Below, piece by piece: positions 1 through 10,273 of a DNA stretch of 10,273 bases (positions are counted from its first letter, which is position 1; each line of letters opens with the position of its first letter). Origin of the DNA: a virus (taxonomy: Duplodnaviria > Heunggongvirae > Uroviricota > Caudoviricetes); IMG/VR virus record IMGVR_UViG_2617270966_000009; one strand, 5' to 3'. The translations under genes and the position numbers were made by a program. Under the pieces are notes generated by a model that was not told the origin of the DNA, ran no database searches, and saw only the letters and a list, made by a program, of their open reading frames with translations.

Positions 1-1254
1 ATGCCAAAACTCACAGACATGCAGATCCGCGCATGGATAAAGGCCGGGGAGCGATTCGAGGGACGCTCTGACGGTAACGGGCTTTATCTTTCATACCGCG
101 AAAACTACCAGACCCCCGTCTGGCGATTCCGCTATAAATTCGCAGGGAAACCCCGCGCCATGCTGATTGGCTCATATGCCGAGCTATCACTATCAAAGGC
201 CAGAGAGACAGCCAAAGAGCTATCGGCTCGCGTTGCGCTGGGCTATGACGTTGCAGGAGAGAAGCAGAAGCGCAAAACCGAAGCACTGGCGAAGATGGAA
301 GCAGAGAAGAACGCTATGCGCGTTTCAGAGCTTGCCGCTGAATACTTTGAGCGTCAGATCCTCCCGCGCTGGAAGCACCCCGATATACTCCGCCGCCGTA
401 TCGACAAAGATATAAACCCATGCATTGGCAGCATGAAGGTGGAGGACGTGAAGCCGCGCCATATCGACGACATGCTGAAAAGTATTGTTGACCGTGGAGC
501 GCCGACCATAGCAACGGACGTTCTGCGCTGGACACGCCGCATATTTGACTACGGCATTAAGCGGCACGCACTGGAGATTAACCCGTGTTCAGCCTTTGAG
601 GTGGCAGACGCCGGAGGGAAAGAAGTTTCCCGCGACCGCTGGTTAACACGTGGCGAACTAATCCGACTGTTTCAGTCTATGCGCACGGCTAAGGGATTCA
701 GCCGTCAGAACGAAATCACGTTCAAATTACTGTTAGCGTTATGCGTCCGCAAAATGGAGTTATGCGCCGCCCGCTGGGAGGAGTTCGATTTTGATAAAGC
801 CGTATGGCATTTACCAGAGGAACGCAGCAAAAACGGCGACGCTATAGACATCCCATTAGCACCGCCAGCCGTCGAATGGCTGAGAGAGCTTAAAACGTTC
901 TCATGCAACAGCGCATGGGTGCTTCCAGCCAGGAAGATGCAAAACAGAATGATCCCACATATTCAGGAAAGCACTTTACCCGTAGCACTGGCTAAGGTTC
1001 GCGCTGAAATGCCTGATGTGCCTAATTTCACGATTCACGACTTCCGACGCACCGCACGTACTCATTTAGCAGCGCTGGGCGTTGATCCGGTAGTCGCAGA
1101 AAGATGCCTTAATCACAAAATTAAAGGCGTGGAAGGTATCTATAACCGTCACCAGTATTTTGATGAGCGTAAAGCGGCGCTGGCGCAGTGGTGTGATTTG
1201 CTGGTGGCACTGGAAAGCGGAAAAGACTACAACGTAACGCCAATCAGAGCATGA
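1..1254 (+). CDS. int: Tyrosine-type site-specific integrase, phage P4 / CP4-57 family
   Basis: 417-aa ORF. N-terminus (KLTD.QIRAWIKAG...GLYL...WRFRYKF.GK.....GSY..LSL..AR) matches the arm-binding N-terminal domain pattern of P4-like integrases as I recall it. C-terminus carries the catalytic signature HDFRRT ... LNHK ... GIYNRHQY (R-H-R-Y tyrosine recombinase core). ATG at position 1, so the att site and any tRNA target lie upstream, outside the window. Confidence 0.9.
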   Translation: MPKLTDMQIRAWIKAGERFEGRSDGNGLYLSYRENYQTPVWRFRYKFAGKPRAMLIGSYAELSLSKARETAKELSARVALGYDVAGEKQKRKTEALAKMEAEKNAMRVSELAAEYFERQILPRWKHPDILRRRIDKDINPCIGSMKVEDVKPRHIDDMLKSIVDRGAPTIATDVLRWTRRIFDYGIKRHALEINPCSAFEVADAGGKEVSRDRWLTRGELIRLFQSMRTAKGFSRQNEITFKLLLALCVRKMELCAARWEEFDFDKAVWHLPEERSKNGDAIDIPLAPPAVEWLRELKTFSCNSAWVLPARKMQNRMIPHIQESTLPVALAKVRAEMPDVPNFTIHDFRRTARTHLAALGVDPVVAERCLNHKIKGVEGIYNRHQYFDERKAALAQWCDLLVALESGKDYNVTPIRA

Positions 1255-1272
1255 TGAGAGGAAAGATTCATA

Positions 1273-2223
1273 ATGAAATTACCTGCGCATAAATATTATT
1301 CTTTGGATAAAGCAGCCAAACTGGCCGGATGTGAAGTATCCGATTTAATACACTATGCAGCAATTGGGGTTTTAGAAATATGTATAAAAATTCCACCTAT
1401 TGAATTGTTTTACCATTACCCCAAAAATGAAGATGCCGACCCAGAATTACTTAAAGTTGAAACAGATAGTATTTTTCATATAGATACAAAAGCAGCACAT
1501 GAGAATTATCTTCTTAATCTGAGCAATGAGGCAGATAATCTCGAATCATATGGCTTATCACCGCTTGATTATAAAAATAGCGATAACCATATGTATTTTA
1601 TGAGGTTTTCATACAAATCAGAACATTTCTCAGTTATAGAGCGATACAATGTTGGGAAGGATGAAAGAGATATCGAAAGATGGAACGGTCTATTAGCAAT
1701 TCCGTCTGCGTTCATAGATAACGATGAGCGGGAGCTATCAGAATGGGATGATTGGGAGATCTCCGTATGCGAACTGACGCCTCCGAGATGTGACGAGTTT
1801 AGCAAATCGAATAATTATGAAATCGGAGCTTTTTATATTGACGGCTGGTATGAAATAAGCCGAAATAAAATGTATATAACTGACTATGAATACAATCTTC
1901 TTATAAATGGAGGAAAATATATTTATGACAGACCCATGCACAAACCACCCGCAAACAAGTTATCCAATGATATAAATACGCTAAAAGTTAATAAACGTGC
2001 CGAACGGTACGCAGTCAATAGGGAGAAACTATTAAAATCTGCAATTTATATACTTAGTAAGTATCCAAATGAATGCAGGGGAGTAAGGAAAGAAATAAGC
2101 CCTGAGAAGTGGCGTGACTGTCTTGTTCGTCATTTAGACGAAGTTCCACCACTTATGATAACTAATGAAGATGTAATTCTTAAACAGCTGCGATCTGCGG
2201 CAAATGGCAAAGTGGATAGTTAA
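1273..2223 (+). CDS. Hypothetical protein, AT-rich orphan gene with putative N-terminal HTH-like segment; function unknown
   Basis: 316-aa ORF starting 19 nt after the int stop, with GAGAGG upstream of the ATG. Composition is clearly more AT-rich than its neighbours (hand count about 38% GC in the first 60 nt versus about 55% at the start of int). N-terminus (YSLDKAAKLAGCEVSDLIHYAAIG) resembles an excisionase/MerR-type helix-turn-helix; the rest is rich in Y/N/K/E/D with no motif I recognise. Followed by a hairpin plus T-run at 2234-2261. Confidence 0.75.
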   Translation: MKLPAHKYYSLDKAAKLAGCEVSDLIHYAAIGVLEICIKIPPIELFYHYPKNEDADPELLKVETDSIFHIDTKAAHENYLLNLSNEADNLESYGLSPLDYKNSDNHMYFMRFSYKSEHFSVIERYNVGKDERDIERWNGLLAIPSAFIDNDERELSEWDDWEISVCELTPPRCDEFSKSNNYEIGAFYIDGWYEISRNKMYITDYEYNLLINGGKYIYDRPMHKPPANKLSNDINTLKVNKRAERYAVNREKLLKSAIYILSKYPNECRGVRKEISPEKWRDCLVRHLDEVPPLMITNEDVILKQLRSAANGKVDS

Positions 2224-2233
2224 CTTGCTATAG

Positions 2234-2261
2234 AGGTACTGCAAAATTACAGTACCTTTTC
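2234..2261 (+). terminator. Putative rho-independent terminator after the AT-rich gene
   Basis: Perfect 8-bp inverted repeat AGGTACTG (2234-2241) / CAGTACCT (2250-2257) with an 8-nt loop, followed by TTTT. The stem is AT-rich, so moderate strength. Confidence 0.5.
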
Positions 2262-2329
2262 ATTGTATATCTATACAGCTAGATTTCTCGTAACGAAGCA
2301 ACAACTACCGCTAAGAGGTTACGGGAATC

Positions 2330-2533
2330 ATGAACATCGACACTATCCCTACAAAAGGCTATATCAGACGCTTCCGCCTTGCTGAATTGCTGGGCGTTAG
2401 TGTTTCAACCATTGATCGCAAAGTTCGCAGCGGCTCGCTACCGCGCCCGGTAAAGCTGGGGGAGAAGATTACCGCCTTTGATGCGGTAGAGATTAATAAC
2501 TGGCTGGCGGAGCGCCGGGGAAAGGTGGCGTAA
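2330..2533 (+). CDS. alpA: AlpA-family phage transcriptional regulator (HTH_17-type)
   Basis: 67-aa ORF with RBS AAGAGG upstream. LAELLGVSVSTIDRKVRSGSLPRPVKLGEK...AFDAVEINNWLAER matches the AlpA/excisionase-like HTH pattern (ligand-free HTH followed by a conserved W). Position after int is the canonical AlpA location in PICIs and CP4-57-like islands. Confidence 0.85.
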   Translation: MNIDTIPTKGYIRRFRLAELLGVSVSTIDRKVRSGSLPRPVKLGEKITAFDAVEINNWLAERRGKVA

Positions 2534-2967
2534 TGAAAAAGAAAAACCGCCCCGTACAGCAGGCGGCTAACTCAGATATTCGCACGTCTGATATTACGCC
2601 GACCACCAGCCCGGTACAAGTACCTAAGCGAACCCCAAAGAAACACCGCGCCCGCGTCTATATGCTGCGTACTGGCGTAGAGGGATGGACAGAAAACGAC
2701 ATTCTGCGATATTGCCGCCTTTCATCTGGAAGGAACTACGCCAGCGAGTTAGAGCGCAGGCTTGATATTCAGCTTGAGCGTATAGACGAAAAGAACCCCG
2801 ACGGGATAGGGTCACATTTACGCTATCGCTTTACCGGGCGCGGTGACGTTCTAAAAGTTATTCGGCTTGTGAACCATAACGCCGACGCTGGCGGCTATCA
2901 GGGACTTTCTCAGCCTGAAATTGCCGACATTCTCAACCTATACCCGGACAATCTCACCGCCGCCTAA
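2533..2967 (+). CDS. Hypothetical protein with basic, low-complexity N-terminus
   Basis: 144-aa ORF whose ATG overlaps the alpA stop (TAATG), indicating translational coupling. N-terminal 40 residues are rich in K/R/P/T. No recognisable catalytic motif. Confidence 0.65.
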   Translation: MKKKNRPVQQAANSDIRTSDITPTTSPVQVPKRTPKKHRARVYMLRTGVEGWTENDILRYCRLSSGRNYASELERRLDIQLERIDEKNPDGIGSHLRYRFTGRGDVLKVIRLVNHNADAGGYQGLSQPEIADILNLYPDNLTAA

Positions 2968-2979
2968 CGGAGACTGAAA

Positions 2980-3813
2980 ATGAACATCGAAAAAAGCAGA
3001 TTAATTTCTGAGGCCGCCCCTCATCTGAACGCCTATCAGGGCACAATTAACGGTAATGAATTTGCCGCAATTGTCCCGGTTATTCCTGGTCATATCGGTG
3101 GGCGTGAAACCAATATTGTTAGCGCAAAAGCGTTACACAAAGCGTTGGGCGTGGGAAAAGACTTCTCTACATGGATCACTGATCGCATCTCTGAATATGA
3201 CTTCACCATTGGGCACGATTACTCAGTCCATAAAACAATTTCCCCAAATTTGGGGAAAAGCCCGAATGGCGCGGCTTACAGCAAGATTAAGCAGTCTGGC
3301 AGACCCGGCAAAGACTATCTGTTAAGTGTCGGAATGGCGAAAGAACTGGCAATGATCGAACGCAATGATCAGGGTCGCGCTATCCGCCGTTATTTCATCC
3401 AGTGCGAGGAAGAATTACAGCGTAGCGTGCCTGAAATCGCCGCCCGCTATCGTCGCCAGCTAAAAGCCCGTATCAGTGCCGCAAACAACTTTAAGCCAAT
3501 GTGCGATGCGCTGAATATGGCCCGTGCCGAGATGGGTAAAGCGACGCAGCAGCGCCACTACAGCAACGAGAGCAACATGATCGCCCGTATCGTGCTGGGT
3601 GGCATGACGGCGAAGCAGTGGGCGCAGGCAAATGGCATTACTGGCGAACCACGGGACAGCATGAACGCAGCACAGCTTGAACACCTCGCCTATCTCGAAA
3701 GCACCAATATCACGTTAATTGATATGGGCATGGAATATGAGCAGCGCAAAGGAGAACTCCCCCGCCTGTCGCAACGCTGGCTCGCTAAACGTCTGGAGGT
3801 AAACCATGCGTAA
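2980..3813 (+). CDS. Phage antirepressor / regulatory protein-like (Bro-N / KilA-N / Rha / AntA-type N-terminal domain)
   Basis: 277-aa ORF with RBS GGAGA 7 nt upstream. N-terminal region (NEFAAIVPVIPGHIGG...NIVSAKALHKALGVGKDFSTWITDRI...DYLLSVGMAKELAMIERNDQGRAIRRYFIQCEEEL) has the layout of phage antirepressor-type DNA-binding domains. The exact family cannot be resolved by eye. Confidence 0.7.
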   Translation: MNIEKSRLISEAAPHLNAYQGTINGNEFAAIVPVIPGHIGGRETNIVSAKALHKALGVGKDFSTWITDRISEYDFTIGHDYSVHKTISPNLGKSPNGAAYSKIKQSGRPGKDYLLSVGMAKELAMIERNDQGRAIRRYFIQCEEELQRSVPEIAARYRRQLKARISAANNFKPMCDALNMARAEMGKATQQRHYSNESNMIARIVLGGMTAKQWAQANGITGEPRDSMNAAQLEHLAYLESTNITLIDMGMEYEQRKGELPRLSQRWLAKRLEVNHA

Positions 3814-3988
3814 CCATAATCCGATGCCGGGAAGCCGTTACAAGGACAGTCACGGGGCTGTAGTGACCGTACAGCGCGTCGAGCATAACCGAGTGACCTT
3901 TTACCGCGAGGGCTATCAGTCGCCATGTGTTCAGCCTTTGGAGAGATTCGTTAATGAGTTCGTGGAGGTGCGCCGTGATACTGAATGA
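3806..3988 (+). CDS. Small hypothetical protein (60 aa)
   Basis: ATG at 3806 overlaps the stop of the upstream gene (ATGcgTAA) and is preceded by GGAGGT, suggesting translational coupling. Resembles small conserved prophage proteins, but I cannot name the family with confidence. Confidence 0.5.
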   Translation: MRNHNPMPGSRYKDSHGAVVTVQRVEHNRVTFYREGYQSPCVQPLERFVNEFVEVRRDTE

Positions 3989-4160
3989 ACCTGCCGCCCA
4001 GAAAGAAGCCTTTAATCTGGCTAGCCTGTTAACAAATGTTAACCCTTACAACCTTATAAAACCAAAGGTCGCGAACGGCTGCCTGTTATCAATTGTTATG
4101 GTTAATGACTTAGCAAAACTTAGCCTGAACCTCACAAAACCTGACATCCACGCACGGGGA
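3989..4160 (+). promoter_or_regulatory. Putative promoter/operator region for the downstream replication operon
   Basis: GTTAACAAATGTTAAC at 4028-4043 is two palindromic GTTAAC hexamers spaced exactly 10 bp centre to centre. It is followed by CCTTACAACCTTA and a TATAAA box (4055-4060). No convincing sigma70 -35 at canonical spacing, which would fit an activator-dependent promoter. The call is weak because a long open + frame runs through this region. Confidence 0.3.
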
Positions 4161-4694
4161 ATGACGACAAATGATGACATTTTAAACCAAGAAATAATCA
4201 CCTCTAAAAAGCTGATTGTGGGGAATAAATTCCCCCTGCTGGCTGGTGGTATGAACTGGATTGCTACCGTTGTGAACCGTTCCACATCGACTTTCGCGAC
4301 AAATACGCGTGCGCTGGAAGATTTATTAGGGGTCGTTACGCGAGAAGGTGAGTATTCGGAGTCCATAAAAAAGGGCTTGCCGACTATCGCCAACCCGGTT
4401 TATGGTTATAGCGCACCAGCAAAATCTGGTGCCGGGATTGGCGTCCTGATAATGTTACAGGCGACACATGACGCGCCGAGCGTCTTTTTTTGTGTCCTCG
4501 CATCTGCACACCTCTTTCCCAGCGATATGGCTATAGCCCATATTGCTCAAAAAGTAATGGTGGGCTGGATGGGGGCGGAGCGATCCGCGCCGGTTTCCTG
4601 TAACGCCGGTTACGCCAACCCTGTTCAGCTCACCACCAGTGAAATTGGCGTTTCCGGTGGTGGGAATAAATCCCAGTTACAGGAGGCTGCCATA

Positions 4695-4886
4695 ATGGCT
4701 ACTACCCCTACCCAAAAACCGCAATTTATCTGGATTATCGCAGCAGTTCGCCGCGATATGCCGACAATTACCGCCAAAATTCACCATATCGCCGCAGAGA
4801 CTGAGCAGGAAGCCCGCCGCATTCTGGCGCGGGATCACGTTTGCTTTTTTGCCGGACGTATTCGCACAGGGGGCGCACATGCTTAA
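4695..4886 (+). CDS. Small satellite protein, possibly Icd-like (host cell division inhibitor-like); 5' boundary uncertain
   Basis: Strong AGGAGG 7 nt upstream of ATG 4695 (MATTPTQKPQFIWIIAAVRRDMP...). The same frame is open back to 3927 with in-frame ATGs at 4161, 4527 and 4557, so the true product may be longer or there may be two in-frame products. The upstream segment MVGWMGAERSAPVSCNAGYANPV resembles what I recall of Ash-family proteins; this is unverified. Confidence 0.5.
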   Translation: MATTPTQKPQFIWIIAAVRRDMPTITAKIHHIAAETEQEARRILARDHVCFFAGRIRTGGAHA

Positions 4887-5058
4887 TTACTTCCGTGTTG
4901 CAGGATGCGCCACCGCCCGGAGCGGCGAATTAGTCGAGTTCGTTTATATCGTTGACGCCCGCAGCGCGATCAGCGCCAAAGCTGAGGCGCTAAATCAGGC
5001 CAGAAATGAACGCCTTTCCCACATCCAGATTACCCGCATTCGTGAGGTGGCAGCATGA
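4879..5058 (+). CDS. Small hypothetical protein (about 59 aa)
   Basis: ATG at 4879 preceded by AGGGGG and overlapping the stop of the upstream ORF (ATGCTTAA). The six-frame track start at 4849 lacks an RBS. Part of a chain of coupled small genes upstream of the primase. Confidence 0.5.
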   Translation: MLNYFRVAGCATARSGELVEFVYIVDARSAISAKAEALNQARNERLSHIQITRIREVAA

Positions 5059-5318
5059 ACATAACTACCATCTACCGCCACCCGGCAGAGCTGGAAGCCG
5101 AAGCGATGCTATCTCGCAAAGAATCATACCCGGATGATTTTACGCTGGCAGACCGAACAGCAGAACGCATGACCCGCGCCCGCAATGGGCTGGCTCACGT
5201 TATGACCGATTTATTACCACTCCTCGAAGTTGAGCAAGCAGCCATCGCGTATTGCTGGCTGAGTAAAGTCCTGACGATTGTCGATATAGCCAGAATTGAT
5301 GCGGAGGGCAGCGCATGA
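5055..5318 (+). CDS. Small hypothetical protein (87 aa)
   Basis: ATGA start/stop overlap with the upstream gene at 5055-5058. Acidic protein with no recognisable motif. Confidence 0.55.
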   Translation: MNITTIYRHPAELEAEAMLSRKESYPDDFTLADRTAERMTRARNGLAHVMTDLLPLLEVEQAAIAYCWLSKVLTIVDIARIDAEGSA

Positions 5319-5372
5319 GCAACGCACCGACCATTAAATCGGGAAATGCCGCTGGCGCACTGAGGGGGCGAC

Positions 5373-5714
5373 ATGATTACTAAAAATTTCCGACTGAATG
5401 CGCTGGCGAATAAGTATGCGTCGGCACTGTATAACCACATTACCTCCACCAGCGGCGGGGACTATTTCATGGTTGATGCGGACGGCCTCGCCGTCCGTGT
5501 GGAAATCGTCAATGGAGTAAAAGGCGTTCGCAGTCTGATCGATAGCTACACACTGGCAGCCATGAAAGTGTCCTACCCGCAGTGGGAAACCGTGGGGGTC
5601 GAGCTTCTTGAGCGTTGCGTCACTAATGACGGATTGACTGACGTCGGGCGTGAGATATGGCAAAGCATGGTTAAAGACATGGGCGCGACCGTGGCAGGAG
5701 GCAACCATGCGTAA
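5373..5714 (+). CDS. Hypothetical protein (113 aa), immediately upstream of and coupled to the primase
   Basis: ATG at 5373 with GAGGGGG RBS (5362-5368). Stop TAA at 5712-5714 overlaps the primase ATG at 5707 (ATGcgTAA). Confidence 0.6.
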   Translation: MITKNFRLNALANKYASALYNHITSTSGGDYFMVDADGLAVRVEIVNGVKGVRSLIDSYTLAAMKVSYPQWETVGVELLERCVTNDGLTDVGREIWQSMVKDMGATVAGGNHA

Positions 5715-8148
5715 TATCGACCTTATCCGCGAAGTGACCAGTGCCGCCGCCGGGCGCTGGCCTTATGTGCTGGCTGGATTGTCTATCGACGTGCCTGATT
5801 CATCGCGCCGCCATTCTCCATGCCCTGCATGTGGTGGAAAAGACCGTTTCAGATTCGACGACAACGGGCGCGGTAGCTTTATCTGCAATCAGTGTGGCGC
5901 TGGTGACGGTTTAGACCTGATTAAGAAGGTGAACAACTGCGACACTACGGAGGCGGCACAGCTTGCCGCTGATGTGCTGGGTATTGATTACCGGGCAGCG
6001 GAAACCGCCCCGGTGGCAGCGAGCCATAGAAGAGAGCAACTGGAAGCTGACCGCCAGCAGCGTGAGCAGGAGCGCCAGAAACAGGCAGCAGAGGATGCAG
6101 AGCAGCGAAGGGCTACGTTTGCCCGTCTGTATGCCGGAATGCGCCAGAGTGCCACACAGGGAGAATCTGATTACCTGCAATCAAAAGGGCTGACCGGGTT
6201 TAACTATCCGGTTATGCCGGATGGTTCGTTATTGCTGGAGCTGGTGGACGAATCCGGCGCAGTGGCAGCAGCGCAAACCATTACACCGCAGGGAGAGAAG
6301 CGACTCCTGACAGGTTCAGCAAAGCGCGGGGCATATCACGCCGTAAACGCACCAGAACAGCCGCAGAGCGTATTAATTGCCGAGGGGCTGGCTACGGCCC
6401 TGTCCGTTCACCTGATGCGCCCGGACGCGCTTACAGTGGCGGCAATTGACGCCGGGAACCTGATCCACGTTGCCAGAGTAATGCGCCGGGAACACCCGCA
6501 GTCGCAAATTATCATTGCCGCAGATAACGACCACCAGCAGGACGAACAGGCGAACACGGGCAAAGATGCCGCAGAGAAAGCCGCCTTATCCGTGGCTGGC
6601 TGGGTGGCGCTGCCGCCGACAGACTACAAAGCCGACTGGGACGACTACCGCCAGCAAAACGGGCTGGAAGTCGCTACGGCTGCGTTTAACGATTCGATGT
6701 ACCAGATTCAGGGGGAAGCCGTGAAACCACAACTACAGGCCATTGTGGGCGGTAAATCCCGCCGTAAAGCCGAAGTCGGAGATATTGCACAAATGGCAGC
6801 CAGCCAGAAAGCGCGGTTGCTTTCATCTCGCTGGGATATGTTGGCGGTCAACCCTGATAGTGGCGCTGTTTACTGCTACGAATCTGGCGTATGGGTGAAG
6901 CTACCAGACAGCGAATTAGAAAGGGTTATGGTGGCAATTTTCGACGAGCACGAAGCCCACTACACCGAAAAAGGGATTAAATCGGTTGTCGCAACCATGA
7001 AGCTGCAAATACCGGTAATTGGTGAGCGGAGCGGGGATCTGATTGGTTTTGATAACGGCGTTTATGACCTCGCTACGCAGACGTTTTCCGCCCATTCGCC
7101 GGGTAACTGGCTGATGAACCACAATGGGATCACCTACACCCCGCCAGCGCTGGGGGAAAATATTACCACCAGCGCCCCCAATTTTACCCGTTGGCTGAAT
7201 CATGCAACGGCTGGCGACCATCATAAGGCCGAGCGTATCAAAGCAGCCTTGTTTATGGTGCTGGCGAAGCGTCACGACTGGCAGCTATTCATTGAGATAA
7301 CTGGCGAGGGCGGCAGTGGGAAATCCGTATTCAGCAGCATAGCAACCACGCTGGCAGGTGAACACAACACCGCCAGCGGTAGCATGATGACGCTGGACAC
7401 CGCACGGGGACGGGCGCAGTTCGTAGGAAAAAGCCTGATTATTATGCCTGACCAGACCCGCTATGTTGGAGAGGGTGCGGGGATTAAAGCCATTACGGGC
7501 GGCGATCCGGTAGAGATTGATGGGAAATATGAAAAGCAGTTCACAACCGTGATAAATGCCGTTGTTATGGCAACCAATAACGAGCCGATGACATTCACGG
7601 AGCGAAACGGGGGCATTGCCCGCCGCCGCGTGATATTCCCGTTTAATAACCCGGTATCAGACGCAGACAAAGACCCGGATTTAACCGCAAAAATCAGGCG
7701 AGAAATCCCGGTGATTATCCGCCACCTGCTAACCACCTTTGCCGACCAGAACAAAGCAAAGGCACTATTACTAGAGCAGCGCGATTCGCAGGAGGCGCTA
7801 GAGGTTAAACGCGGCACGGATCCGGTTGTCGATATGTGTGCGGCGCTTTTTTTCATGAACGAACCCAAAGGCATGATGATGGGCGGAGGTACATGGGCAG
7901 GCCAGCCAGAGCCGAGGACGTATCTTTATCATCTTTATCTGGCGTTTATGGAGTATCACGGTTTGGGTAAACCGCTTTCCGTCAATAAGTTTTCACGCGC
8001 CATAAAATCAGCAGCAAAAGAGTACCGAGCCAGCTACCTGACGAGAAGCATTAACGGCAGAGCGCAAACCAACGTTGGCTATAACGAGAAGGCTGAGGAG
8101 TTCATGCCACGCGCTTACGGTGTGGAGAGCGGGCAGAGTGATGATTGA
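5707..8148 (+). CDS. Replication primase-helicase: primase Zn-ribbon + Toprim + phage/plasmid primase P4-family / D5-like SF3 NTPase
   Basis: Preferred start ATG 5707 with CAGGAGG 5 nt upstream; the track's longer ORF begins at a GTG at 5650 without an RBS. Zn-ribbon CPACGG...CNQCG at 5821-5895. Acidic Toprim-like IIIAADNDHQQDE with DND at 6523-6531. Walker A GEGGSGKS at 7303-7326. Size (813 aa) and domain order match P4 alpha-like and PICI pri-rep proteins. Confidence 0.9.
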   Translation: MRNIDLIREVTSAAAGRWPYVLAGLSIDVPDSSRRHSPCPACGGKDRFRFDDNGRGSFICNQCGAGDGLDLIKKVNNCDTTEAAQLAADVLGIDYRAAETAPVAASHRREQLEADRQQREQERQKQAAEDAEQRRATFARLYAGMRQSATQGESDYLQSKGLTGFNYPVMPDGSLLLELVDESGAVAAAQTITPQGEKRLLTGSAKRGAYHAVNAPEQPQSVLIAEGLATALSVHLMRPDALTVAAIDAGNLIHVARVMRREHPQSQIIIAADNDHQQDEQANTGKDAAEKAALSVAGWVALPPTDYKADWDDYRQQNGLEVATAAFNDSMYQIQGEAVKPQLQAIVGGKSRRKAEVGDIAQMAASQKARLLSSRWDMLAVNPDSGAVYCYESGVWVKLPDSELERVMVAIFDEHEAHYTEKGIKSVVATMKLQIPVIGERSGDLIGFDNGVYDLATQTFSAHSPGNWLMNHNGITYTPPALGENITTSAPNFTRWLNHATAGDHHKAERIKAALFMVLAKRHDWQLFIEITGEGGSGKSVFSSIATTLAGEHNTASGSMMTLDTARGRAQFVGKSLIIMPDQTRYVGEGAGIKAITGGDPVEIDGKYEKQFTTVINAVVMATNNEPMTFTERNGGIARRRVIFPFNNPVSDADKDPDLTAKIRREIPVIIRHLLTTFADQNKAKALLLEQRDSQEALEVKRGTDPVVDMCAALFFMNEPKGMMMGGGTWAGQPEPRTYLYHLYLAFMEYHGLGKPLSVNKFSRAIKSAAKEYRASYLTRSINGRAQTNVGYNEKAEEFMPRAYGVESGQSDD

Positions 8149-8164
8149 AACTTTTACGGCGGCA

Positions 8165-8415
8165 CTTATCCCTACTGCCCTACTAAAAACGAGACGAGGC
8201 CAGACGTAGCAAGGCTTTAAACTAGGTAGGGATATATATTTTTATCCCTACTTATCCCTACATATCCCTACCAAATAAAACAGGCAGTAAAATGCCGTTG
8301 AAGTGATTTAGTAGGGATAAGTAGGGTTATGTAGGGCAACAAAATTGAATGCCTACCAGTCTGAAAGCCTTGCCATTCGTGGCATGAGCCAGTTAGTAGG
8401 GATTGGTAGGGATAT
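8165..8415. repeat. Iteron cluster, putative origin of replication of the element
   Basis: At least 11 copies of a GTAGGG(A/T)T-type motif, mostly in phased arrays with exact 10-bp spacing. Minus-orientation copies (CCCTAC) at 8170-8175, 8178-8183 and three tandem TATCCCTAC at 8244-8272. Plus-orientation copies at 8226-8232, three at 8311-8336 and two at 8396-8411. Located directly downstream of the primase-helicase gene, the canonical ori position in PICIs. Confidence 0.7.
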
Positions 8416-8485
8416 TACACCCCCAAAAAGATTCTATGGGGGGGTGAGCTTAAAACGAAACTTGTCAAAACTTGACACACAGAAC

Positions 8486-8520
8486 GATGCCAGCAGCTAC
8501 TGAGCGGCGGCATTTTTTTG
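8486..8520 (+). terminator. Possible weak terminator downstream of the primase operon
   Basis: Short imperfect stem (ATGCC ... GGCAT) followed by a run of seven T at 8514-8520. The stem is weak, so this is tentative. Confidence 0.25.
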
Positions 8521-8582
8521 TGCTATTTGTTTCATATTTTGCAATTACGGTGATAAATATTGCTATTTGTGAAACTATAATA
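8518..8582 (+). promoter_or_regulatory. Putative promoter with flanking direct repeats upstream of the small-protein / metallopeptidase operon
   Basis: Perfect -10 hexamer TATAAT at 8576-8581. Exact 10-mer direct repeat TGCTATTTGT at 8521-8530 and 8561-8570 (40 bp apart), a candidate operator. The -35 is not obvious. A consensus TTGACA also occurs at 8471-8476. Confidence 0.35.
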
Positions 8583-8613
8583 ACTGTTGTTTTATACAGT
8601 TCTAAGGGGCGTT

Positions 8614-8787
8614 ATGGCTATTTCAGTAAAGCCGGTATTGATAAGTGAGAAGCAAATGGAAGCGATAAAGAAAATTCAGGAGGAGCAGCGTAAAAAATCA
8701 GAGGTAGGAGTTGCGCCAACGATCCACGAAATTGCTCGGGGATTAATGGATAAGGCGCTGGCCTCACTGGCAAGCGAGGGCGCGTAA
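8614..8787 (+). CDS. Small protein (57 aa), possible ribbon-helix-helix-type DNA-binding protein / antitoxin-like
   Basis: ATG at 8614 with AAGGGG RBS; the track's longer ORF begins at a TTG at 8587. Predicted short N-terminal strand (SVKPVLISEKQ) followed by helical segments. Stop TAA overlaps the ATG of the next gene (TAATG at 8785-8789). The fold assignment is an inference, not a motif match. Confidence 0.5.
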   Translation: MAISVKPVLISEKQMEAIKKIQEEQRKKSEVGVAPTIHEIARGLMDKALASLASEGA

Positions 8788-9458
8788 TGGGCGCCATTCA
8801 CCAGATATATGAGCATGAAATGTTCTATAACTGGATAGGTGATGGTAAACGATGTGTAGCATTCCACGAAGCGGGACATGCAGTAGCTGCATGGCTTATT
8901 CGCTTAGATATACAGGTTATCGCCGTTATGGATGAATACGGTTACGTTGCTGGCGAACATGTACATGAGGCCAAGTGTTTGGGCGTTGTTAAACACAGCA
9001 TAATTCACAGCCACGATCTCGGGCGTTTGCGGGATAGTAAATCTGGTGTAGTTGGGCAGAATGGTAAAGTTATCCCTTTCATACGTTACTATGCGGATGG
9101 TATAAAGCGCGATGCAAAAAAGGCCGCTTTTGTATCCCTCGCCGGACCAGTAAGCGAAGCCCTTTACGAAAACAACGATATTTTCAACAAAAAGTATTCG
9201 CTACCTCATCGCTATGACATGGCTAACGTAAATGACATGCTCGATTTAATCTGCGCTACAGATAAGCAAATTAACAGGGAGTTAATGCTTTCTAAACTCG
9301 TTGAAAAGACCAAAGCCCTCATGGCTCAATACTGGTATGAAGTAGAAAAAATAGCGCATTTGCTTGAACGGGATAGCATTGTGAATGGTCGAAATGTTAG
9401 CTCGTTAATTGGCATCAACGTCATAGACCGGGCAACGCCATTTTTGCTGGTGGAATAA
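8787..9458 (+). CDS. Standalone zinc metallopeptidase-like protein with HEAGH motif (FtsH/M41-like or ImmA-like active site)
   Basis: 223-aa ORF, translationally coupled to the upstream small gene. Contains VAFHEAGHAVAAWL (HEAGH encoded at 8865-8879), which closely resembles the FtsH peptidase M41 zinc-binding site; acidic residues downstream could supply the third ligand. No AAA+ ATPase domain is present. GC content is visibly lower than the replication genes. Confidence 0.7.
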   Translation: MGAIHQIYEHEMFYNWIGDGKRCVAFHEAGHAVAAWLIRLDIQVIAVMDEYGYVAGEHVHEAKCLGVVKHSIIHSHDLGRLRDSKSGVVGQNGKVIPFIRYYADGIKRDAKKAAFVSLAGPVSEALYENNDIFNKKYSLPHRYDMANVNDMLDLICATDKQINRELMLSKLVEKTKALMAQYWYEVEKIAHLLERDSIVNGRNVSSLIGINVIDRATPFLLVE

Positions 9459-9671
9459 CTCCCGACCAAACTCATTCGATGATTCATTTCTCCACGGGTA
9501 AGCTATGCCGGTAGACCTAACTCCGCAGTATTACCGGAATCAGCCAGGCTACAGGCACACAGGAGGCCACGCAACACAATCCGCGCCTGGATGGGAGTTA
9601 TATAATACCCCTGATGATTTTGACCAACGCCCACCATTCGACGATGAAACGCCATTCTGGGGGAGATAAAC

Positions 9672-9953
9672 ATGGTAAACGACAGTAAAGCCGAGGATCT
9701 GGAAGCAAAAGGGCTGTACCGACGCGCCGCAGCGCGATGGATGGAAGTCATGCTGTTATGCACCGAGGACGATGATCGGGAATGGATAAAGCGCCGCCGT
9801 GAAACGTGTCTTGAGAACGTGAAGCGCCCGCCCGTGAAGGCTGAGGACTTTGGCGACCTGCATAAAGCTGTTACCGAAACGCAACACCGCATGGGGATAG
9901 CGCAACCGAACGGTAACGCCTTCCGGTTAAATGGCGGCAATAGGCAAAGGTAG
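9672..9953 (+). CDS. PerC/Pch-like small transcriptional regulator (tentative)
   Basis: 93-aa ORF with GGGGGAG RBS. AEDLEAKGLYRRAAARWMEVM...REWIKRRRETC resembles the conserved core I recall from PerC-family (Pch) regulators encoded on prophage-like elements. Followed by a strong terminator. Confidence 0.55.
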   Translation: MVNDSKAEDLEAKGLYRRAAARWMEVMLLCTEDDDREWIKRRRETCLENVKRPPVKAEDFGDLHKAVTETQHRMGIAQPNGNAFRLNGGNRQR

Positions 9954-9965
9954 ACCACCAGTGGG

Positions 9966-10027
9966 GAGGGGCGGGGCAAATCCCTGCGGCCTGACGTCTT
10001 CCGGACTGCCCGCCCCATCGTTTTTTC
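9966..10027 (+). terminator. Rho-independent terminator
   Basis: GC-rich inverted repeat GGGGCGGGGCA (9968-9978) / TGCCCGCCCC (10007-10016), with inner pairing also possible, followed by TTTTTT at 10021-10026. Sits 13 nt after the PerC-like stop. Confidence 0.75.
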
Positions 10028-10087
10028 ATACCCGCGAAAAATGAAATTTAATCCGGGCGTGTTTCATCCTTCCAGAGGGTATGACGT

Positions 10088-10273
10088 ATGACACCACGCG
10101 AAATAGCCTTATTGACCATCGCCAAACTTGAGCACGGAGGCCACCAGCTTACACAGGCAGATCAACGGGAGATAGAACGCTCAGTTAATGCCGATATAGC
10201 CCGGCGCGACAGGTTCCGCGAAATGATGCGAGCACCTGCCTACCAGTGGAAGAAGCCAGCGCCGCGCAGGTAG
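10088..10273 (+). CDS. Small hypothetical protein (61 aa)
   Basis: ATG at 10088 with AGAGGG upstream; ORF closes with TAG at the very end of the window. Charged, helical-looking sequence with no recognisable motif. Confidence 0.4.
   Translation: MTPREIALLTIAKLEHGGHQLTQADQREIERSVNADIARRDRFREMMRAPAYQWKKPAPRR

What the first reader, a model, noticed from the sequence alone, without database searches (positions are those of the whole stretch)
1273..2261. AT-rich orphan gene between integrase and alpA: candidate cargo, possibly a single-gene anti-phage or regulatory function
The 316-aa ORF has a base composition clearly different from the flanking int and alpA (hand estimate high-30s % GC versus mid-50s). 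It carries its own hairpin/T-run terminator and sits in the integrase-proximal slot. The protein pairs an N-terminal HTH-like segment (LDKAAKLAGCEVSDLIHYAAIG) with about 270 residues that match nothing I recognise. Integrase-proximal slots of satellites and PICIs are known landing sites for variable accessory genes, including defence systems, so a compositionally foreign gene here is a reasonable candidate for an uncharacterised accessory function. That it is a defence gene is a hypothesis only.
Basis: partly seen in the sequence, partly recalled or inferred. Interest (0 to 1): 0.8.

Follow-up and report, generated by a model that had tools for sequence, protein, structure and literature searches.

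The report
Hypervariable integrase-linked satellite gene family
The AT-rich gene between the integrase and alpA is real and sits in a swappable slot of a P4-related phage satellite, but it is not an orphan: it belongs to a large, undescribed protein family found only in this slot, which probably senses phages, though its function is untested.

Summary
A 316-aa ORF (1273-2223) has 36% GC, against 53% for the flanking int and alpA. It starts 18 nt after the int stop and is followed by a terminator-like hairpin.

It is not an orphan. An exhaustive HMM search finds 640 clusters (50% identity) of similar length. All named sources are Enterobacterales and all are annotated as hypothetical. There are no Pfam, NCBIfam or PADLOC hits and no structural relative for the body of the protein.

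The predicted architecture has four parts: an Xis/MerR-type winged helix, a variable acidic alpha/beta body, a disordered linker, and a near-invariant basic helical C-domain.

In roughly 30 loci examined the gene is always the first gene after a P4-type integrase, usually upstream of alpA. It was never found in phage or plasmid records. Among E. coli islands at yicC, where Int is 87-94% identical, the slot holds six different proteins, four of them from this family. One allele has moved between diverged islands. Every family member examined is AT-rich, so low GC is a trait of the family and not a mark of recent arrival.

The slot is positionally equivalent to P4's cII-beta-gop defence hotspot. 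Best reading (about 0.4): an accessory phage-sensing, anti-phage or helper-interference cassette. Close rival (about 0.3): an Stl-like helper sensor that controls alpA.

The parts
1..1254 (+). P4-type tyrosine integrase (Arm-DNA-bind_3 + Phage_int_M + Phage_integrase). It forms the left, conserved boundary of the variable slot.
   Evidence: Pfam hits at E 3e-16 to 3.5e-18. It is 87-94% identical in aa across the yicC islands whose slot genes differ.
1255..1272 (+). 18-nt int-X spacer containing a Shine-Dalgarno-like GAGAGG. It lacks the RF02996 int-alpA RNA that occupies this position in sister islands.
   Evidence: Sequence. No promoter-like site lies upstream on the + strand. Rfam finds RF02996 in L007, L009, L023 and L025 but not in the window.
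1273..2223 (+). Target gene X, 316 aa. Residues 1-65: Xis/MerR-type winged helix. Residues 66-215: variable acidic alpha/beta body. Residues 216-240: disordered linker. Residues 241-316: near-invariant basic helical C-domain.
2234..2264 (+). Terminator-like hairpin (8-bp stem, 8-nt loop) followed by TTTCATT.
   Evidence: The L007 and L014 cassettes have equivalent hairpins with different stem sequences.
2264..2288 (+). Cassette-specific DNA upstream of the alpA leader. It contains the palindrome TGTATA-TC-TATACA (2264-2277) and a -10-like TAGATT, and presumably holds the alpA promoter.
   Evidence: The palindrome is kept only in close alleles (L031) and not in the Kosakonia ortholog L002, so an operator role is unsupported.
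2289..2329 (+). Conserved alpA leader, the right boundary of the variable cassette. A stem (2286-2326) encloses the alpA Shine-Dalgarno sequence.
   Evidence: A 39-41-nt match at about 97% identity in E. coli genomes that lack the X gene itself; junction alignment; fold of -12.2 kcal/mol, z = -2.35.
2330..2533 (+). alpA (AlpA/Vis-type regulator and excisionase).
   Evidence: Pfam Phage_AlpA E = 3.3e-8; 35% identical to P4 Vis.

Best explanation
Gene X is a functional accessory cassette in the integrase-proximal variable slot of a P4-related satellite (int - X - alpA - antA - ash/icd with C4 and isrK immunity RNAs - alpha-type primase, with no psu, delta or sid). It belongs to a previously undescribed, Enterobacterales-wide family of modular proteins that is tied to this slot. 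The proposed mechanism is inferred, not shown. X is expressed with int in the lysogenic state. Its fast-evolving acidic N-terminal body (winged helix plus alpha/beta domain) recognises a phage-derived protein or DNA. Its conserved basic C-terminal domain, tethered by a flexible linker, then acts on a conserved host or nucleic-acid target to block the phage, either a competitor or the helper. In other words it would be a single-gene sensor-effector immunity or interference module. Cassettes are exchanged among islands by recombination between the int 3' end (or the int-alpA RNA) and the conserved alpA leader.
For: Shown. (a) The gene is real and under purifying selection: dN/dS 0.19, against 0.04 for int and 0.03 for alpA. 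(b) The slot is hypervariable. With Int 87-94% and AlpA 69-100% identical, the slot protein is the 316-aa target, a 321-aa variant (32% identical), 281-aa and 307-aa variants that only profiles detect, or 293-aa and 216-aa proteins with no detectable relation. Implied slot sizes are 1010-1137 bp in the rows sampled from the 308 genomes that carry the flanks. (c) The cassette boundaries are sharp. The X allele in L032 is nearly identical (dS 0.027) while its flanks have dS 0.47 and 0.87, which means recent cassette transfer. (d) The gene is dispensable for the backbone. tRNA-Thr islands that are 98% identical from position 2523 onward have another int and alpA and no X. (e) The architecture has a variable unit and a conserved unit: N~Mid r = 0.95 and N~C r = 0.35. 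The C-domain is 74% identical where Int is only 27% identical, and an acidic body is paired with a basic C-domain. (f) AT-richness is typical of exchangeable accessory genes. (g) Position: in P4, reading from attP, the order is int, then cII on the same strand with its own terminator, then beta and gop, cos, psu-delta-sid and vis. P4's gop-beta-cII protects against lambda and P1 (PMC9122126), and 6 of 8 unknown-function P4 hotspot loci tested were protective (10.64898/2026.02.27.708500).
Against: No occupant of the slot hits PADLOC: 0 of 7 at a meaningful E-value, and only stray E ~1e-3 hits among 131 family members. By contrast, most P4 hotspots carry recognisable defence systems. Known defence genes are shared among phages, plasmids and islands, but this family was found only directly after P4-type integrases and never in 50,697 phage records or in plasmids. 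The slot always holds one co-oriented gene of similar size, and synteny persists across integrases only 24-28% identical, which suggests functional coupling to the int/alpA module. P4 cII is not homologous. No effector-type domain (nuclease, TIR, HEPN, transmembrane) is recognisable. There are no experimental data.
Confidence: 0.4

Rival explanations
1. X is a helper-phage sensor and transcriptional regulator of the satellite, a functional analogue of SaPI Stl. The winged helix binds DNA at the cassette-borne alpA promoter (or at Pint) and keeps alpA off. A helper-phage protein binds the variable body and releases it. The hypervariable body then sets helper specificity.
For: The N-terminus has an Xis/MerR-type winged helix, the same fold class as AlpA and Vis. 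The gene has a fixed place inside the integration/regulation module, directly upstream of the master activator alpA, with a terminator between them. The family is exclusive to this slot in satellites. The promoter-proximal DNA upstream of the conserved alpA leader belongs to the cassette and is inherited with X. The wHTH co-diversifies with the middle domain (r = 0.95). How helper phages turn on alpA, and whether GN-PICIs have a protein repressor, are open questions (PMC6092414).
Against: No conserved operator was found. The 14-bp palindrome at 2264-2277 is lost in the Kosakonia ortholog despite a very similar wHTH, and promoter-region types do not track X types. The co-variation test does not separate the N-terminus from simple linkage. 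The island already has P4-type C4/isrK RNA immunity. A near-identical backbone exists without X, and the same slot can hold an unrelated 216-aa protein. The profile match to AlpA/HTH_17 is not significant.
Confidence: 0.3
2. X is an accessory factor of site-specific recombination, either a recombination directionality or architectural factor or an integrase modulator. It would work with Int and AlpA at the att sites.
Against: X type is uncoupled from Int and AlpA type. L009 has an identical AlpA and 94% identical Int but a distant X; L015 has 27% identical Int but 46% identical X. The conserved C-domain does not co-evolve with Int. AlpA already supplies the RDF-type protein. Hypervariability of the body would not be expected for an architectural factor. 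The slot is empty or differently filled in related islands.
Confidence: 0.1
3. X is a decaying or neutral hitch-hiking ORF, or the AT-rich stretch is non-coding filler with a chance ORF.
For: No functional annotation exists anywhere. Composition is unusual.
Against: The intact 951-nt ORF is kept in 41 complete E. coli genomes. The closest protein cluster alone has 263 member sequences. There are 640 related clusters of conserved length. dN/dS is 0.19. The AF2 model is confident, with pLDDT around 90 in the domains. The C-domain is near-invariant across genera.
Confidence: 0.03

Closest known systems
P4 satellite integrase-proximal hotspot (cII-beta-gop; 'between int and psu')
   Same: Same topological position. 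It is the first gene after a P4-type int on the same strand and is followed by a terminator. The content varies among otherwise similar satellites. The P4 locus is non-essential and anti-phage (PMC9122126).
   Different: P4 cII is not homologous (hhalign probability <= 0.3%). The P4 hotspot holds many unrelated, often multi-gene and known defence systems of variable size. Here the slot holds a single gene of about 1 kb, mostly from one superfamily, with no known defence domains. This element lacks cos, psu, delta and sid.
SaPI Stl / PICI Rpr master repressors
   Same: They are int-adjacent, have an HTH plus a highly divergent sensing part, and set specificity through an arms race with helper phages (PMC6092414).
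   Different: No homology is detectable. The Stl gene is divergently arranged relative to the operon it represses, whereas X is co-directional with int and alpA. In X the conserved part is the C-terminus, not the HTH. The island uses P4-type RNA immunity. X is not universal among sister islands.
AlpA / Vis / Xis (HTH_17, MerR-type winged helix)
   Different: The sequence-level relationship is not significant (probability 1%). No Pfam HTH_17 or AlpA hit for the target, and only 1 of 131 family members hits at E = 0.005. X is 4-5 times longer, with two further domains.
BstA-type single-protein prophage abortive-infection factors (recalled from the literature, not tested here)
   Same: One protein of about 300 aa, carried by an integrated mobile element, with an N-terminal DNA-binding domain and an uncharacterised C-terminal part.
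   Different: BstA has a KilA-N domain; X has no KilA-N or Bro-N hit. No phenotype is known for X.
Rfam RF02996 int-alpA RNA
   Same: It occupies the same int-alpA interval and lies directly upstream of X in sister islands (sequences).
   Different: It is an RNA motif, not the protein, and it is absent from this window, which has an 18-nt spacer.

Membership tests
MerR/excisionase-type winged helix (Pfam HTH_17 / Phage_AlpA) | beta-alpha-alpha-beta-beta winged-helix fold | tested here: met
MerR/excisionase-type winged helix (Pfam HTH_17 / Phage_AlpA) | Significant match to the family profile | tested here: not met
   No Pfam hit at E <= 0.1 for the target. One of 131 relatives hits HTH_17 at E = 0.005. 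hhalign against an AlpA/Vis alignment gives probability 1%, E = 0.055.
MerR/excisionase-type winged helix (Pfam HTH_17 / Phage_AlpA) | Sequence-specific DNA binding | not testable with these tools
   No conserved operator could be identified.
Known or candidate anti-phage defence systems (PADLOC-DB 2.0) | Match to a defence-protein profile | tested here: not met
   Zero hits for the target at E <= 1. Among 131 relatives only isolated E ~5e-4 to 7e-3 hits, each from a single member. Other slot occupants give only E = 0.002 and 0.044.
Known or candidate anti-phage defence systems (PADLOC-DB 2.0) | Protection against phage infection | not testable with these tools
   Needs cloning and a phage challenge.
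P4 hotspot cargo (cII / sce7726 family) | Homology to P4 cII | tested here: not met
   hhalign probability 0.1-0.3%.
P4 hotspot cargo (cII / sce7726 family) | Located between int and the next core gene of a P4-type satellite, with variable content | tested here: met
   P4 gene order; island gene order and C4/isrK RNAs; slot variability.
Core satellite gene (present in all related elements) | Invariant presence and vertical co-inheritance with int and alpA | tested here: not met
   The slot holds unrelated 216-aa and unresolved 293-aa proteins in yicC islands. It holds no family member in tRNA-Thr islands with the same backbone. X divergence is decoupled from its flanks.
CP4-57 YfjH (gene in the int-alpA slot of E. 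coli K-12) | Homology | tested here: not met
   hhalign probability 0.1%; yfjH is on the opposite strand.
SaPI Stl-type master repressor | Represses the island's lytic operon and is released by a helper protein | not testable with these tools
   Only indirect arguments are available (see the rival explanation). No XRE-type HTH hit.

The most novel reading that the evidence does not exclude
X and its 640-cluster family are the missing protein switch of Gram-negative PICI/P4-related satellites. In this reading X is an integrase-linked, Stl-like sensor whose hypervariable body binds a helper-phage protein and whose winged helix and conserved C-domain gate alpA (and int) expression. Cassette swapping would then re-programme which helper phages a satellite can exploit.
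Probability: 0.3. Interest if true: 0.85.

Novelty: new variant of a known kind. Interest (0 to 1): 0.6.

Why it matters
Integrase-proximal variable slots of satellites are proven reservoirs of new anti-phage systems, and how Gram-negative PICIs sense their helper phage is unresolved. This gene defines a large, unannotated protein family with several useful properties. It is confined to one satellite slot. It has a clear split between a variable module and a conserved module. It has a central fold with no detected relative. It also offers natural allelic series, with six slot types behind near-identical integrases in E. coli and four or more in Salmonella. Together these make it an unusually tractable candidate either for a new single-gene immunity mechanism or for the helper-specificity determinant of these satellites. 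It also changes how the Rfam int-alpA RNA should be viewed, since that RNA may be the 5' leader of this gene family.

Tried and rejected
1. Pfam, NCBIfam, PHROGs and PADLOC scans of the target gave nothing, apart from PHROG 13283 (unknown function) at E = 0.02 on residues 1-44. Scans of 131 relatives and of 6 alternative slot proteins also gave nothing.
3. K-12 YfjH and P4 cII, both recalled from memory as occupants of the same slot, were tested and are not homologous.
4. EcCIMP1_002, the slot gene of a characterised PICI, is a small unrelated ORF.
5. The operator hypothesis failed: the 14-bp palindrome at 2264-2277 is not conserved beyond close alleles. The Mantel-type test comparing the intergenic region with the protein domains does not discriminate, and near-duplicate loci inflate its p-values.
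6. No sigma-70-like promoter was found for X.
7. The genome-contig scan returned only 5 loci because its peptide patterns came from the C-domain.
8. A literature search for the protein accessions returned nothing, and a search for 'int-alpA' returned one unrelated paper.

Full report
**Observation.** The window is part of an island inserted between yicC and dinD in E. coli strain 600029. Its gene order is int (1-1254), the target ORF (1273-2223, 316 aa), alpA (2330-2533), a 144-aa ORF, antA, DUF4222, an Ash/Icd-like gene, small ORFs, a P4-family primase (5707-8148), a 223-aa HEAGH-motif protein and PerC. The composition break is real. The ORF has 36.3% GC (GC3 30%), against 52.7% for int and 53.4% for alpA. 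The ORF starts 18 nt after the int stop, behind a GAGAGG Shine-Dalgarno sequence, and no promoter-like site lies upstream. It is followed by an 8-bp-stem hairpin and a T-rich tail (2234-2264; -13.6 kcal/mol, z = -3.05).

**What the protein is.** No profile library recognises it (Pfam, NCBIfam, PADLOC; PHROGs only at E = 0.02 over 44 residues). It is nevertheless not an orphan. The word-indexed search found 47 clusters. The exhaustive HMM search found 640 clusters at 50% identity with E <= 1e-3, and 155 with E <= 1e-10, nearly all 270-380 aa long. All named sources are Enterobacterales and all are called hypothetical.

The alignment and the AF2 model (mean pLDDT 79, about 90 in the domains) give four parts:
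- Residues about 66-215 form an acidic alpha/beta body with no relative in the PDB or BFVD.
- Residues 216-240 form a disordered linker.
- Residues 241-316 form a basic helical C-domain with 21 invariant residues, the motif being NREKLLKSAIYILSKYP.ECRG.RKEISPEKWRD...PPL.ITNEDVILKHLR.A.NGK.

The N-terminal helix-turn-helix and the body evolve as one unit (pairwise-similarity correlation 0.95). The C-domain is decoupled from them (0.35). It stays 74% identical in an island whose integrase is only 27% identical, so it does not co-evolve with Int.

**Where it lives.** In every context examined the family member is the first gene after a P4-type integrase (Arm-DNA-bind_3), on the same strand, in a small island with a primase or helicase. 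This covers the E. coli yicC islands, 11 look-ups of distant members, 5 representative genomes and 11 IMG/VR contigs, of which 8 were inspected. The one exception to the integrase rule is L033, where the contig is cut just upstream of the gene. The next gene is AlpA/HTH_17 in nearly all cases, including two where the gene caller had missed it. Some of these islands sit inside prophage late genes, like the published helper-embedded PICIs (PMC10111431). No relative was found in 50,697 phage records, and the single 'plasmid' hit is a 4.9-Mb record, that is, a chromosome.

The element is P4-related. It carries the C4 (P4 CI) and isrK RNAs that P4 itself carries, an epsilon/Ash-type gene, a Vis-like AlpA and an alpha-type primase, but no psu, delta or sid. 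The annotated P4 genome reads attP - int - cII (same strand, own terminator) - beta, gop - cos - psu, delta, sid - vis - cI - epsilon - alpha. The target's slot is therefore the positional equivalent of the P4 'int-psu' hotspot. P4's own genes in that hotspot, gop-beta-cII, are non-essential and protect against lambda and P1 (PMC9122126). P4 cII itself is not homologous to X, and neither is K-12 YfjH.

**Is the slot variable?** Yes. A query made of int fused to alpA-antA, with X removed, matched at least 80% of its length in 308 of 5,426 complete E. coli genomes. In the rows sampled where both flanks matched contiguously, the implied slot sizes fell between 1010 and 1137 bp. Among yicC islands Int is 87-94% and AlpA 69-100% identical to the window's. 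The slot protein in those islands is one of six types:
- the 316-aa target;
- a 321-aa variant, 32% identical;
- a 281-aa variant, detectable only by profile (hhalign 98.2%);
- a 307-aa variant, 99.7% against the broad profile;
- a 293-aa protein of unresolved relationship;
- an unrelated 216-aa protein that overlaps the int stop.

Homology between islands stops at the int stop or at the X start codon, and it resumes 41 nt before the alpA ATG. The X allele in strain 54 (L032) differs from the window's at dS 0.027, while its int and alpA differ at dS 0.47 and 0.87. The cassette has therefore moved between diverged islands. Conversely, L009 has an identical AlpA but a distant X.

Islands at tRNA-Thr share a backbone that is 98% identical from window position 2523 onward. 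They have a different int (28%) and a different AlpA (36%), and no family member in the slot. X is under purifying selection that is weaker than on its neighbours (dN/dS 0.19 against 0.03-0.04), with most replacements in the middle body.

**Composition.** All 11 family members checked, from different genera and integrase clades, have 31-40% GC, while the adjacent int and alpA (or next gene) have 46-62%. The exception is L015, whose int is itself 39% GC. Even the conserved C-domain has GC3 of 0.29 in the window. Low GC is thus a family-wide trait and does not show that this gene arrived recently in this island.

**Mechanism.** The data establish a functional, exchangeable, slot-specific modular protein. 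They do not establish what it does.

I favour, at about 0.4, an accessory phage-sensing immunity or interference cassette. Several lines point this way: the variable body paired with a conserved output domain, its dispensability, cassette swapping, the unrelated alternative occupants, the AT-richness, and equivalence with the validated P4 hotspot. In a recent test, 6 of 8 P4 hotspot loci of unknown function were protective (10.64898/2026.02.27.708500).

The main rival, at about 0.3, is an Stl-like helper sensor that controls alpA. It is favoured by the Xis/MerR-type winged helix, the position immediately upstream of the master activator, and the family's strict confinement to this slot. It is also favoured by the complete absence of defence-type domains and PADLOC hits among the slot occupants, and by synteny that persists across integrases only 24-28% identical. 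The way helper phages switch on alpA in Gram-negative PICIs is an acknowledged open question (PMC6092414).

Against the regulator rival:
- I found no conserved operator. The 14-bp palindrome at 2264-2277 is lost in the Kosakonia ortholog, and promoter-region types do not follow X types.
- The island already has RNA immunity.
- X is absent from sister backbones.

A role as a recombination accessory factor is less likely (about 0.1), because X type is uncoupled from Int and AlpA type. A non-functional ORF is effectively excluded.

**Comparison and novelty.** The kind of feature, a variable accessory slot next to a satellite's integrase, is known from P4, and from SaPIs between int and stl (PMC9122126, PMC6092414). 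What is new is the occupant and how the slot behaves. The occupant is a large undescribed superfamily specialised to this one position, with conserved termini, a hypervariable core and a central fold without detectable relatives. Published zone schemes for Gram-negative PICIs list only Int and AlpA/HTH_17 in the integration zone (PMC10111431). I rate it a new variant of a known kind, with interest 0.6. It would rise to about 0.85 if it proves to be the helper sensor.

Noticed in passing
window 4413-4490 and 4553-4640 (+): Rfam isrK (75 bits) and C4 antisense RNA (76.9 bits) lie inside the Ash/Icd-like ORF region. P4 carries the same pair (L030 8615-8692 and 8420-8507). The island therefore uses P4-type CI RNA immunity despite lacking psu, delta and sid.
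   Followed up: partly
L007 8149-8215; L009 3997-4063; L023 1789-1855; L025 1769-1835 (also visible in L002-L005 upstream of X): The Rfam RF02996 'int-alpA RNA' (60-66 bits) lies in the int-X spacer, ending about 20-30 nt before the X start codon, whatever the X type. The window, L031/L032 and the Salmonella islands lack it and have 13-18-nt spacers. It may be a cis-acting leader of the slot gene and not a free sRNA.
   Followed up: partly
window 8250-9458 (ORFs 8614-8787 and 8787-9458): A second low-GC patch (38-43%) lies downstream of the primase. It holds a 57-aa ORF and a 223-aa protein with an HEAGH motif (weak Peptidase_M41/FtsH-like hit; annotated 'peptidase M41 family' in some genomes). 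This matches the published PICI and P4 accessory or defence region downstream of pri (PMC11364771; 10.64898/2026.02.27.708500). No PADLOC hit.
   Followed up: partly
window 2286-2326: The conserved 41-nt alpA leader folds into a 9-bp stem (UCUCGUAAC...GUUACGGGA) that encloses the alpA Shine-Dalgarno sequence (-12.2 kcal/mol, z = -2.35). It could be a translational control element or a protein-binding inverted repeat.
   Followed up: partly
window 2980-3813: The C-terminal half of the AntA-family protein (residues 165-266) matches the PADLOC candidate family PDC-S22 (E = 4.5e-11).
   Followed up: no
L028/L029 (E. coli tRNA-Thr/proA islands): A backbone 98% identical to window 2523-10273 is joined to a different int (28% aa) and a different alpA (36% aa). 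The breakpoint lies at the end of alpA, so int-(slot)-alpA is exchanged as one integration module.
   Followed up: partly
L001 16394-19422 (downstream of the window): The island's right end carries a pRiA4b ORF-3 family gene, a reverse hypothetical ORF and two tandem dinD copies. This suggests that the attachment site lies in or next to dinD.
   Followed up: no
L015-L017: Family-bearing islands are inserted directly after prophage terminase, portal and Mu-F-like head genes. These are helper-embedded PICIs, and their integrase is itself AT-rich (39% GC).
   Followed up: no
L024, L026, L027 (yicC islands, including O157:H7 and O111 strains): The alternative slot occupant is an unrelated 216-aa protein whose start overlaps the int stop. 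It is followed by 386-470 nt of non-coding AT-rich DNA before alpA. It has no Pfam or PADLOC match.
   Followed up: partly
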